NCBI GenBank assembly: GCA_003568945.1
Contig: BDIP01000006.1
Location: 1 to 52,487 of the forward strand
Length of the DNA stretch: 52,487 bases
Source: Kipferlia bialata
Lineage: Eukaryota
Direction of reading: 5' to 3'
Below are positions 4,014-7,000 of this stretch, piece by piece. The notes under the pieces are model-generated. The model searched no databases and was not told where the DNA came from. It saw only the letters and a program-made list of their open reading frames with translations. Numbering within the stretch: the first letter of the stretch is position 1; each line of letters begins with the position of its first letter. A program made the position numbers and the translations under genes.

Positions 4014-7000
4014 ATACTAGTAAACCTCACCCCAGGCTTCACCTCCATCATGGTCACAGACAGTCTGCTCAGATCAACTAGGCCAAAGGTATACTATAAT
4101 AATGAACTTATTTTTGAGTTTTTTATATTTATATATTATTTTATTCATATTATTATATGCTCTCTCATAGCCCCCCAAGACTGTTCTTTCTCTCTCCCTC
4201 GCTCTCTGTCTCTCTATATCTATTTCCTAACCTCAAGGCCAAGCCCCCCAAGACTGTGCCTGGTCAGCAATCCTTCTATCTCTCTCTCTCTCTCTATACA
4301 NNNNNNNNNNNNNNNNNNNNNNNNNNNNTTCTATCTCTCTCTCTCTCTCTATACATATATGTACCATAACCTCAAGGCCAAGCCCCCCAAGACTGTGCCG
4401 GGCCAGCAATCCTTCTATCTCTCTCCCATGTATATATATGTATATATACTCTCTCATACCCAGGTCAAGCCCCCCAAGACTGTTCTTTCTCTCTCCCTCG
4501 CTCTCTGTCTCTCTATATATATACCCTAACCTCCAGGTCAAGCCCCCCAAGACTGTGCCTGGCCAGCAGCCTGAGCTGGTCGATGTGGACAAGGTATCAC
4601 TCATATAGAAGAGATAGAGATAGAGAGAGAGAGAAGGAGAAAGAGAGGGAGAGAGGTAGAGTTGGTCGATGTCGACAAGGTATTGTATATATTTTAAGAG
4701 AGAGTTAGAGAGTTAGTCGATGTCGATAAGGTACGATTGAACTATTTCTCTCCTCCTCTCTCTTTCCACACTTTTGTGTTGATACATCCTTACCCCTAGG
4801 TCCCCTGGGTGAGGGCTGCCAATGCAGAGGACTCTCTGTCTCTCTCTCTGTCTCTCTCTCTGTATATATATATATATATACTATACTTATATTCAGGTCC
4901 CCTGGGTGCGTGATGCCAATGCAGAGGTCTCTATCTCTCTCTCTCTCTTTCTCTATGGATATATATATATATATTTATGTACACATACTTACATTCAGGT
5001 CCCCTGGGTGAGGGATGCCAATGCAGAGATCGACCAGGCAGTGGCCCTGTTCGGAGTCAGCAGGTATATACATTTGTAAGTGTAAACATATATGTATGAT
5101 AGTACATATGATATATTCATTATATATATGTATGATAGTACATATATTCATTGATGTCTGCCTCTCTCTCTCTCTCTCTCTCCCTCTGAACTTCCCTTAT
5201 ACAAGGCACGGGGTGATACTGAACCACCCCCTGACCGGTCGTACCTACCTCTATCTGGCATGGGACCAAGTGGAGTCAATAGAGATAGGTATATACACTA
5301 ATAGTGTATATATATGTATATAGTGTAGTATATATATGTACCTATCTCTATCTGGCATGGGACCAAGTGGAGTCAATAGAGATAGGTACATACATCTATG
5401 ATGCATTGTATATAGTATATATATATGTATATAGTGTAGTATATATATGTGCCTACCTCTATCTGGCATGGGACCAAGTGGAGTCAATAGAGATAGGTAC
5501 ATACACAAGTATTGTACACATTACATTGAGTGTGAATGTCTTACCATTTCTATCCCCCCAGGCCTTGAGGTCATCAACATCACACCCAGAGTAGCTTCGT
5601 TCTCTATTGAATATAAATTCACATATATACATATATATATATATATATATAGTTAGAATAGGGTGTATATACACCTATACACATGCCTCTCTCTCATATC
5701 TCAGGCCTTGAGGTCATCAACATCACACCCAGGGTGGTGACACCCCAGGTCACACAGCCACCCATTAGGTATATAACATATGTATTGATATACATATACA
5801 CTATATATGCAAAGTGATCTGCATGTATATTGATATATTACCATAGTGGTGACGCCCCAGGTTACCCAGCCACCAATTAAGTATCATCTCTCTCTCTCTC
5901 CCTCTAGCCTTTTATTGTCAGGAAGACTGTCAAGCTCTATACCAAGAATCTCTCTCTCTCACTCTGTCTCTCTCTCTCCCTCTAGCCCCTTATTGTCAGG
6001 AAGACTGTCAAGCTCTATACCAAGAATCTCTCTCTCCCCCCCCCTCTCTCTCTCTCTCCCTCTAGACCCTTATTGTCAGGAAGACTGTCAAGCTGTACAC
6101 CATCTCTCTCTCTCTCTCTCTCTCTCTAGCCCCTTATTGTCAGGAAGACTGTCAAGCTGTACACCAAGAATCTCTCTCTCTCTCTCTCCCTAAACCCTTA
6201 TTGTCAGGAAGACTGTCAAGCTCTATACCAAGAAGGTCGGGGATGCTGCCCTGATGGGTGGACTGGCCACTGTATTGAGAAGAGAGTGTTTATCATTACT
6301 AGAAGGTATATAGACAGGGACATATGCTATAAGAGCGTGATCTATAGATATGGGTGTATATAGATATGTTGTATGTATACATATACTATGCTGCCCTGAT
6401 GGGTGGACTGGCAACTGTGCTCAGGAGGGAGTGCTTGTCCCTACTTGAAGGTATATATATATAGTATGTATGGCATTACTAGAAGGTTAGTATGTATTTA
6501 TATATACATGGGTATTATAGTGTATGTATATATATCCTATGCTGCCCTCATGGGTGGACTGGCCACGGTGCTGAGGAGAGAGTGCTTGTCCCTACTTGAA
6601 GGTATATATATATAGTGTGTATGGCATTACTAGAAGGTTAGTATATATATATATGGGTATTATAGTGTATATATACATATACTATGCTGCCCTGATTGGT
6701 GGACTGGCCACTGTATTGAGAAGGGAGTGCCTAGCATTACTAGAAGGTATATATACACATATATATGGCCTACCCCCTCTGTCAGAACAGTCTCTCTGTC
6801 CCTGTCTCTCTCTATATTTATACATATGTATCAGTAACATGAATACACGTATATATACATAATACTAACTCCTCAGACACCCCTGCCCCCTCTGTCCGGG
6901 CACCCATCCCGGCATCACCCTCAAAGGTACATATATATATATGTATACATATATAAGGTATGTGTACAGGTTATACATACAGTAAATGGATAGTTACTCA

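What the first reader, a model, noticed from the sequence alone, without database searches (positions are those of the whole stretch)
6245..6746. Intronic 'exon echoes' that cannot be normal exons yet diverge almost only at synonymous sites
Seen directly. Exon end 6245-6305 (AALMGGLATVLRRECLSLLE) is copied at 6390-6450, 6541-6601 and 6686-6746. The first two copies each differ in 10 codons with no amino-acid change (including ttg>ctc, tta>cta, aga>agg). The copies keep the GT donor but have no upstream branch/AG and sit among stop-rich TA repeats. The same holds at 708-760 versus 861-913 (9 differences, 8 synonymous, 1 K>R) and at 42.54 versus 42.66 kb (Arg cgt>agg, ctg>ctt, gga>ggt, aat>aac). 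Neutral decay of junk duplicates would give mostly non-synonymous changes, so these sequences were filtered at the protein level. Inference, three models: (a) fossil ends of formerly functional divergent alleles, pushed into the intron when repair or unequal recombination copied in a new exon end (an exon-end treadmill archiving old alleles); (b) silent cassettes used as gene-conversion donors; (c) pieces used by non-canonical RNA processing. I know of no described system like this.
Basis: partly seen in the sequence, partly recalled or inferred. Interest (0 to 1): 0.95.

Follow-up and report, generated by a model that had tools for sequence, protein, structure and literature searches.

The report
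Old alleles fossilised inside introns
In the free-living protist Kipferlia bialata, two thirds of the introns examined hold copies of the neighbouring exon's end or start that differ from it mostly at silent codon positions; these are likely leftovers of other working alleles brought in by recombination, so one genome would carry a readable record of hidden sex and extreme genetic diversity.

Summary
Confirmed and far more general than reported. The window is Kipferlia bialata DNA. Exon versus echo: 340 silent, 98 replacement codons, dN/dS 0.081 (CI 0.061-0.107), pS 0.30. Echo versus echo is 0.088. The null 'only the exon is selected' gives 0.33-0.55, and clonal simulations with gene conversion give 0.52-0.77; both fail. 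Private changes (silent/replacement): exon 27/0, nearest echo 27/7, farthest 18/25, so new copies likely enter beside the exon and then decay. At the one locus laid, DNA contigs cover exon and echoes with no mismatch at single-copy depth and show no second allele. Best reading: echoes are former working exon ends from divergent alleles, joined by recombination between lineages and ignored because splicing pairs sites across the exon. Donor alleles and RNA remain untested. The scan noted exon echoes before in sea-urchin windows, explained there by exon-only selection, which is rejected here.

The parts
6208..6305 (+). working exon 15 of gene A (FERM-domain protein P0001); its last 63 bases and first 27 bases are echoed
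   Evidence: open frame and identity with P0001; AG/GT ends
6388..6450 (+). donor-side echo 1 (exon end + GT), nearest
   Evidence: 10 silent, 0 replacement codons
6474..6485 (+). 12-base mini-echo of the exon end, followed by GT (below finder threshold)
   Evidence: seen directly
6539..6601 (+). donor-side echo 2
   Evidence: 10 silent, 0 replacement vs exon; 5 silent, 0 replacement vs echo 1 although the 30 intron bases behind both match at 29 of 30
6625..6636 (+). second mini-echo of the exon end, followed by GT
   Evidence: seen directly
6684..6746 (+). donor-side echo 3, farthest
   Evidence: 3 silent, 2 replacement codons
5922..6170 (+). four acceptor-side echoes of the exon start (at 5922, 6000, 6080, 6144), each behind its own AG and cut off by a CT repeat
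   Evidence: 0, 0, 2 and 2 silent changes, no replacement
6877..6926 (+). next working exon
   Evidence: P0001
669..1137 (+). exon 669-760 with donor-side echoes 861-913, 974-1025, 1076-1137 (and an acceptor-side echo at 578-611)
42500..42708 (+). exon 42500-42583 with donor-side echo 42663-42708
20..12466 (+). gene A, 32 exons, FERM_M PF00373; 51 echo segments, dN/dS 0.060
14572..17294 (+). gene B, 10 exons, weak SOUL match (below Pfam cut-off); 6 echo segments, dN/dS 0.24 with CI 0-0.75
20607..24777 (-). gene E (part modelled), 14 exons; 11 echo segments, dN/dS 0.21 with CI 0.05-0.45
25620..31757 (-). gene D, 15 exons, Peptidase M50 / S2P (P0002); 23 echo segments, dN/dS 0.086
33147..52424 (+). 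gene C, 52 exons in one open frame, no family named; 63 echo segments, dN/dS 0.088

Best explanation
The echoes are head-to-tail duplications of exon-intron junctions whose coding part likely served as the working exon end of a different, divergent allele, was likely brought onto this chromosome by recombination between lineages, and now appears to decay unused. Inferred steps: (1) the species has a pool of alleles that differ at roughly 15-30% of silent sites but hardly in protein; (2) between such alleles the short exons are the only good homology, so exchange starts there; (3) when a break end has copied the partner's exon end, GT and some TA-rich intron and cannot re-anneal, it is joined to the other end, so the new end becomes the working one and the old end drops into the intron (mirror image on the AG side); later exchanges can use an existing echo as landing site, which repeats the same junction; ordinary sister duplication followed by fine-scale recombination gives the same picture; (4) echoes are short-lived (about 2-3% decay) and are removed by collapse between direct repeats; (5) they are harmless because the spliceosome would pair AG and GT across the exon and ignore orphan sites.
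For: Shown: 154 echo segments in 78 of 118 introns; 70 of 72 exon-end copies keep GT, 52 of 55 exon-start copies keep AG; dN/dS 0.081 (0.063 with 9 junction bases trimmed), mismatches by codon position 52/26/274. Echo-echo 0.088; exon-private 27 silent/0 replacement; nearest echo 27/7, middle 16/7, farthest 18/25, Fisher p 0.001. 16 silent codon pairs differ at two or more positions; replacements are no more conservative than random (BLOSUM -0.39 vs -0.62, p 0.15), as expected of decay. Variant sharing switches in 29 of 45 neighbouring columns (median 6 bases apart), 11 of 76 silent variable codons have three or more states; divergence is continuous (beta-binomial AIC 427 vs single class 451). 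25 of 55 echo pairs share a junction. Simulations: clonal models 0.52-0.77; donor-templated 0.10-0.16 and duplication plus recombination 0.15, both with the observed near/far pattern. DNA contigs 6205-6458, 6436-6609, 6587-6921 match with no difference at depth 434-456, like other loci. Echo splice sites score like used ones (p 0.37, 0.82), and in 24 of 24 mixed introns all donor echoes precede all acceptor echoes. Literature: K. bialata has PolQ, Dmc1, Rad52, Spo11, Hap2, Gex1, Msh4/5 and lacks Rad51A; metamonads lack NHEJ (PMC8516963); aborted SDSA plus TMEJ makes tandem duplications (PMC8654963); crossing-over prefers exons in a hypervariable fungus (PMC4209137).
Against: No donor allele was seen: the DNA run shows no second allele at 6150-6960, protein searches gave only the organism's own record or nothing, and two metagenome scans found no relative. 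The needed silent diversity reaches or exceeds the highest figure I found for a eukaryote (0.20, PMC4576712). Sex has not been observed in Metamonada (PMC8516963). K. bialata keeps Msh2/3/6 and XPF, which should limit recombination between diverged sequences and clip flaps. Junction microhomology is modest: repeat continuation of 2 or more bases in 28 of 127 (null 6.2%), none in 79. Genes B and E alone do not exclude the exon-only null (CI up to 0.75 and 0.45). The simulations are small, with parameters of my choosing, and do not separate donor-templated from sister-templated origin. One 52-kb window only.
Confidence: 0.62

Rival explanations
1. Only two (or a few) donor genomes: an old hybrid, allopolyploid or long-asexual diploid exchanged exon ends between its diverged chromosome sets and later lost one set.
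For: Needs no hyperdiverse population; two-class mixture fits almost as well as a continuum (AIC 429.8 vs 427.4); patchy heteroduplex repair could give fine mosaics (recalled).
Against: 11 of 76 silent variable codons have three or more states, 7 of 13 informative column pairs are incompatible, partitions switch every 6 bases; no second set in the DNA run or protein searches; replacements between donors would be expected to be conservative, which they are not.
Confidence: 0.14
2. Echoes are used at RNA level as alternative exon ends or starts through an unknown joining step, and are themselves under (weaker) purifying selection.
For: Low dN/dS, kept GT/AG and weaker constraint with distance would all follow; no snRNA candidates were found in K. 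bialata and its spliceosome is reduced to 87 proteins (PMC6679479 passages); no stop in the trimmed set against about 2.7 expected (61 replacements x 4.4%).
Against: 0 of 72 donor echoes have an exon GT and an echo AG with branch motif in register; replacements look random; frameshifting indels seen by eye at 34741-34762 and 37103-37130; GT/AG retention (70 of 72, 52 of 55) is what 2-3% decay allows; an alternative coding for the same residues gives no obvious benefit.
Confidence: 0.07
3. Something makes working exons change about ten times faster at silent sites than their intronic copies decay within one lineage (for example error-prone repair filtered by selection).
For: A tenfold faster exon reproduces pS 0.27, pN 0.026, dN/dS 0.08.
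Against: It predicts neutral private changes in the nearest echo, but these are 27 silent to 7 replacement; ten silent errors in 20 codons per event would carry a lethal load of replacements (inference).
Confidence: 0.05
4. Silent cassettes kept intact by selection because they are gene-conversion donors to the exon within a clone.
For: Mosaic sharing among copies; pairs with near-identical flanks but silent differences suggest patchwise exchange.
Against: Clonal simulations with two-way conversion at 5 and 20 times the mutation rate gave 0.60 and 0.52; conversion fast enough to be selected would erase pS 0.30 (inference); cassettes add no protein variation.
Confidence: 0.04
5. Ordinary dead duplicates: only the exon is under selection, which by itself biases differences to silent sites (the reading given to sea-urchin echoes in e1-9861148).
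For: Echoes do decay; genes B and E alone are compatible.
Against: Null gives dN/dS 0.33-0.52 and 0.34-0.55 with a silent codon share of 0.28-0.42 after the same finder, against 0.081 and 340 of 438 (0.78); echo-echo 0.088; echo-private 39 of 100 replacement, p 1e-15.
Confidence: 0.03
6. Assembly artefact: haplotypes of a mixed culture strung together.
For: Short-read draft with N gaps; three hits beside gaps were dropped as doubtful; no single contig spans the whole stretch, and the DNA run may be the source of the window.
Against: One contig runs from the exon through the intron into echo 1 (6205-6458), the next two through echo 2 and echo 3 into the next exon, all without differences at equal single-copy depth; the intron-to-echo junctions could not exist in any intact allele; the near/far gradient is not expected of an assembler.
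Confidence: 0.03

Closest known systems
Minisatellites spanning an exon-intron boundary (human F7 intron 7; also 6-16, CBS, LAMIN B2, PDGF; PMC1557585, passages)
   Same: Head-to-tail units made of an exon end, the donor and intron start; strong downstream pseudo-donors that stay silent while the first site is used.
   Different: Those are single loci with pseudo-sites identical to the real one. Here two thirds of introns are affected, both donor and acceptor sides, 1-5 copies, and coding parts differ at 30% of silent sites with dN/dS 0.08.
Tandem duplications from aborted SDSA joined by polymerase theta (C. elegans helq-1, brc-1; PMC8654963, passages)
   Same: Extended break end joined to the other end gives a head-to-tail duplication; K. 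bialata has PolQ and no Rad51A.
   Different: Template there is usually the sister, so copies are identical at birth; here most copies are diverged at silent sites. Pol theta dependence is untested and microhomology is modest.
Recombination in hypervariable Schizophyllum commune (PMC4209137, PMC4576712, abstracts)
   Same: Crossing-over between genotypes 14% apart falls in exons where similarity is highest; silent diversity 0.20.
   Different: The abstracts report no duplicated exon ends; diversity there was measured between individuals, here it is inferred from copies within one genome.
Silent-cassette gene conversion (trypanosome VSG, Borrelia vls, Neisseria pilS; recalled, no call)
   Same: Partial gene copies beside or apart from an expressed gene, mosaic sharing.
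   Different: Those cassettes store amino-acid variation for one gene family; these sit in unrelated genes, store silent variation and decay.

Membership tests
Exon-intron boundary minisatellite (F7 type) | first unit spans an exon-intron boundary and repeats the splice site | tested here: met
   70 of 72 exon-end copies followed by GT; 52 of 55 exon-start copies preceded by AG
Exon-intron boundary minisatellite (F7 type) | near-identical repeat units | tested here: not met
   pS 0.30; intron flank beyond null in only 16 of 72 and 16 of 55; 22 of 114 echoes without silent difference
Exon-intron boundary minisatellite (F7 type) | only the exon-adjacent site is used in splicing | tested here: inconclusive
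   required by the open frames and by 27/0 exon-private changes; no RNA cover
Exon-intron boundary minisatellite (F7 type) | copy number polymorphic between individuals | not testable with these tools
   no second isolate found
SDSA/TMEJ tandem duplication | head-to-tail duplication at the locus | tested here: met
   all echoes are direct copies in the adjacent intron, median spacing 108 bases
SDSA/TMEJ tandem duplication | microhomology at the junction | tested here: inconclusive
   28 of 127 with 2 or more bases of repeat continuation vs 6.2% null; 79 with none
SDSA/TMEJ tandem duplication | copies identical at birth (sister template) | tested here: not met
   clonal self-templated models give 0.54-0.77; met only if recombination with other alleles follows
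SDSA/TMEJ tandem duplication | dependence on polymerase theta | not testable with these tools
   PolQ listed for K. bialata; no genetics
Silent-cassette gene conversion system | cassettes store amino-acid variants of a variable antigen | tested here: not met
   340 of 438 changed codons silent, five unrelated genes
Mutually exclusive or alternative duplicated exons | each copy has both an acceptor and a donor | tested here: not met
   each echo has one site only; 0 of 72 in-register swap routes; three whole-coding-exon copies lack an AG or belong to a first exon

The most novel reading that the evidence does not exclude
K. bialata runs a genome-wide exon-end treadmill: recombination between highly divergent individuals swaps in new exon ends and starts and pushes the old working ones into the introns in order of age, so that about half of its intron length is a time-ordered archive of former alleles, giving single-genome proof of outcrossing in a metamonad and silent diversity at or above the eukaryotic record.
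Probability: 0.45. Interest if true: 0.92.

Novelty: new variant of a known kind. Interest (0 to 1): 0.8.

Why it matters
If right, one genome yields population data: sex or parasex, never observed in Metamonada (PMC8516963), and silent diversity near 0.15-0.3 could be read from about one echo per intron. It gives a direct mechanism for intron growth (each echo adds about 110 bases; intron median 149 without echoes, 324 with two, 600 with four) in the intron-rich fornicate used to argue about ancestral genome structure. It implies that a reduced spliceosome picks the first GT and last AG among equally strong copies, a natural large-scale test of exon definition. It also misleads annotation: P0001 ends in an acceptor echo.

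Tried and rejected
No whole genome is held, so the test covers this window only. Reads could be laid on 6150-6960 only. No RNA holder listed; run X2 (RNA is a guess, share 0.15) covers neither the exon nor the echoes there, so expression is untested. Metagenome scan with P0001: 227 pattern hits, none confirmed. Metagenome scan with an intron motif: one locus, L001, which lacks the TA/CT intron architecture and was dropped. Protein searches: one exon of gene A and one of gene D each found only the organism's own record among longer proteins; the gene D exon found nothing among near lengths; weak evidence against a second allele. A first splice-anchored pair search was too redundant and was replaced. 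A score threshold of 12 gave 191 hits with 9 false hits in 238 null pairs and was raised to 14. Three hits beside N gaps were dropped before counting (157 to 154); hits at 29800 and 29760 are two pieces of one echo, so 154 counts segments. A positive control on the repeated exons at 19-21 kb was started but not completed. GC-biased direction is weak (130 W>S vs 102 S>W). Ten paper searches found no description of silent-diverged exon-end copies, in Kipferlia or elsewhere; the library lacks most subscription papers. Supplements of the K. bialata genome paper were not opened, and one supplement of PMC8516963 was unreadable; either could bear on ploidy or repeats. Rejected: exon-only selection, clonal conversion cassettes, normal alternative exons, assembler concatenation at the tested locus.

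Full report
Source and setting. One exon of the first gene and one of a minus-strand gene each found a single protein, named by NCBI as Kipferlia bialata KIPB_000075 (P0001, FERM domain) and KIPB_000079 (P0002, peptidase M50), both on a contig of the window's length. K. bialata is a free-living fornicate; its published draft is 51 Mb with 124,912 GU-AG introns, and the main text has no hit for 'duplicat', 'ploid' or 'heterozyg' (PMC5874029: abstract, passages, sections 4 and 12). No whole genome is held, so all counts are for this window.

The observation. All named comparisons hold. Exon end 6245-6305 differs from its first two copies in 10 codons each with no amino-acid change; the two copies differ from each other in 5, again silently.

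Window-wide survey. I built five gene models by hand (123 exons, 118 introns), all in open frames with GT-AG ends except one GC donor. Gene A equals P0001 for 701 of 706 residues and gene D equals P0002 at 528 of 539, so frames do not rest on the echoes. An ungapped finder (score 14 or more) compared each exon with its two flanking introns: 157 hits, against 0 in 669 exon x non-adjacent-intron pairs. Three beside N gaps were dropped. The 154 left lie in 78 of 118 introns and belong to 79 of 123 exons. 83 lie downstream; 72 of them reach the exon end and 70 of those are followed by GT. 71 lie upstream; 55 reach the exon start and 52 of those are preceded by AG. Donor echoes start out of TA repeats (52 of 72), acceptor echoes end in CT or TA repeats (52 of 55); median spacing is 108 bases and intron length rises from 149 (no echo, 40 introns) to 216, 324, 441 and 600 with one to four.

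Selection signature. Exon versus echo: 340 silent and 98 replacement codons, pS 0.295, pN 0.030, dN/dS 0.081 (bootstrap by exon 0.061-0.107); 0.063 with nine junction bases trimmed; mismatches by codon position 52, 26, 274. Genes A, C, D give 0.060, 0.088, 0.086; genes B (6 segments) and E (11) give 0.24 and 0.21 with wide intervals that do not exclude the null. Echo versus echo is 0.088. In the 37 families with two or more echoes, exon-private changes are 27 silent and 0 replacement; echo-private 61 and 39, where neutrality predicts 77% replacement (p 1e-15); nearest echo 27/7, middle 16/7, farthest 18/25 (nearest vs farthest p 0.001). The 61 replacements of the trimmed set are no more conservative than random point changes. 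So each echo has a long silent-only history and a short random one that grows with distance from the exon.

Nulls. A neutral echo gives 0.64-0.97; a neutral echo beside a selected exon 0.33-0.52. Passing simulated echoes through the same finder leaves this at 0.34-0.55, silent share 0.28-0.42 against 0.78 observed; the exon would need a tenfold higher rate to fit. In one line of descent only one copy works at a time, so at least half of any pair's history is unselected (inference). Small forward simulations (300 haploids, 10 loci per model, parameters mine) agree: four clonal models, two with gene conversion, gave 0.52-0.77; copying from another individual gave 0.10 (silent diversity 0.30) and 0.16 (0.11); self-duplication plus recombination gave 0.15; all three outcrossing models gave replacement-free exons, mostly silent nearest echoes and mixed farthest echoes. 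They show feasibility and do not separate the two outcrossing routes.

How many donors. Divergence per echo is continuous, with 22 of 114 lacking any silent difference (AIC beta-binomial 427, two classes 430, single class 451). Sharing patterns switch in 29 of 45 neighbouring silent columns, 11 of 76 variable codons have three or more states, 7 of 13 informative pairs conflict (23 families). Similarity of the intron flank does not predict silent divergence (Spearman 0.07 and -0.15); echo 1 and echo 2 here share 29 of 30 flank bases yet differ silently in 5 codons. This favours many finely recombined donors, but a two-donor past with patchy repair is not excluded.

Artefact test. Contigs of DNA run X1 cover 6205-6458, 6436-6609 and 6587-6921 with no difference at depth 456, 439 and 434, like contigs of other loci, and no other letters were listed. 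They break only at a short stretch shared by echo 1 and echo 2. The junctions therefore stand in the reads at single-copy depth, and no divergent second allele shows, though contigs drop rare variants, a filter hides some records, and the run may be the window's source. Run X2 did not cover the exon, so RNA is untested.

Splicing. Echo sites score like used sites (acceptor 7.7 vs 8.5, p 0.37; donor 5.6 vs 5.8, p 0.82); in all 24 introns with both kinds, donor echoes come before acceptor echoes, so no false exon is framed; none of 72 donor echoes offers an in-register GT/AG swap. The open frames need the first GT and last AG, which points to pairing across the exon (inference). Silent downstream pseudo-donors are known from human F7 and four other genes (PMC1557585, passages).

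Mechanism. Most likely, exchange between divergent alleles starts in exons, the only well-matched islands, as in S. commune (PMC4209137, abstract). A break end copies the partner's exon end and some intron, fails to re-anneal and is joined to the other end, the route shown for tandem duplications in C. elegans (PMC8654963, passages); the old end becomes the nearest echo. Shared junctions (25 of 55 pairs) suggest repeat events through existing echoes. The gene inventory allows this: PolQ, Dmc1, Rad52, Spo11, Hap2 and Gex1 present, Rad51A and NHEJ absent, but Msh2/3/6 and XPF present (PMC8516963: passages, section 8, supplement rows). That Dmc1 tolerates mismatches is recalled, not from a call. 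Shown: anatomy, selection signature, polarity, contiguity at one locus. Inferred: donor alleles, outcrossing, the repair route, exon definition. I put 0.62 on the divergent-allele reading and about 0.4 on the particular repair route.

Known systems and novelty. The anatomy resembles boundary-spanning minisatellites and the route resembles TMEJ duplications, but identity of copies, a defining feature of both, is not met. Ten searches found no account of the pattern. Earlier notes of this scan describe echoes in sea-urchin genes with 43 of 107 silent differences, explained by exon-only selection; I did not check those data, but that null was tested here and fails. The silent divergence meets or exceeds the 0.20 reported for S. 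commune (PMC4576712, abstract), which is the most demanding part of the reading and the first thing to test.

Verdict. Real, pervasive in the window, not explained by ordinary decay. A new variant of exon-boundary duplication whose copies most likely record former working alleles. Interest 0.8.

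Noticed in passing
window 10831-10891: The annotated protein P0001 ends by running from an acceptor echo into its CT repeat (LSLSF); the open frame continues from 10892 through at least five more exons. Echoes mislead gene prediction.
   Followed up: yes
window 44233-44566: Exon 44233-44316 uses a GC donor; its nearer echo (44405-44430) ends in GT and a shorter, farther one in GC.
   Followed up: partly
window 14549-14841: The first coding exon of gene B (ATG included) is present three times with identical coding bases but differing upstream bases; which start is used is unknown.
   Followed up: no
window 553-577, 7216-7238, 18884-18906, 46825-46848, also 25550-25560 and 31880-31910 (minus): A CTACACCCTT motif recurs just before acceptors and also upstream of gene starts; 4 exact long matches vs 0 expected.
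   Followed up: partly
window 18960-20940 (minus): Large exons of a threonine/serine/glycine-rich repeat protein are internal repeats of each other; no Pfam match for the one tested.
   Followed up: partly
window 4169-4420 and 21717-21772: Sequence repeated on both sides of N gaps, probably scaffolding overlap; three hits dropped.
   Followed up: partly
window 292-343: An echo cut at both ends (no donor), with 7 silent and 0 replacement changes, followed further on by a short separate copy of the exon end.
   Followed up: partly
window 41559-41619, 45950-46090: Very short repeated donor stubs of a few exon bases plus GT, below the finder's threshold; true echo counts are higher than 154.
   Followed up: no
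window 33147-52424: One 52-exon open frame of 1892 codons with tryptophan/arginine-rich repeats in its first half; no family found for three exons tested.
   Followed up: partly
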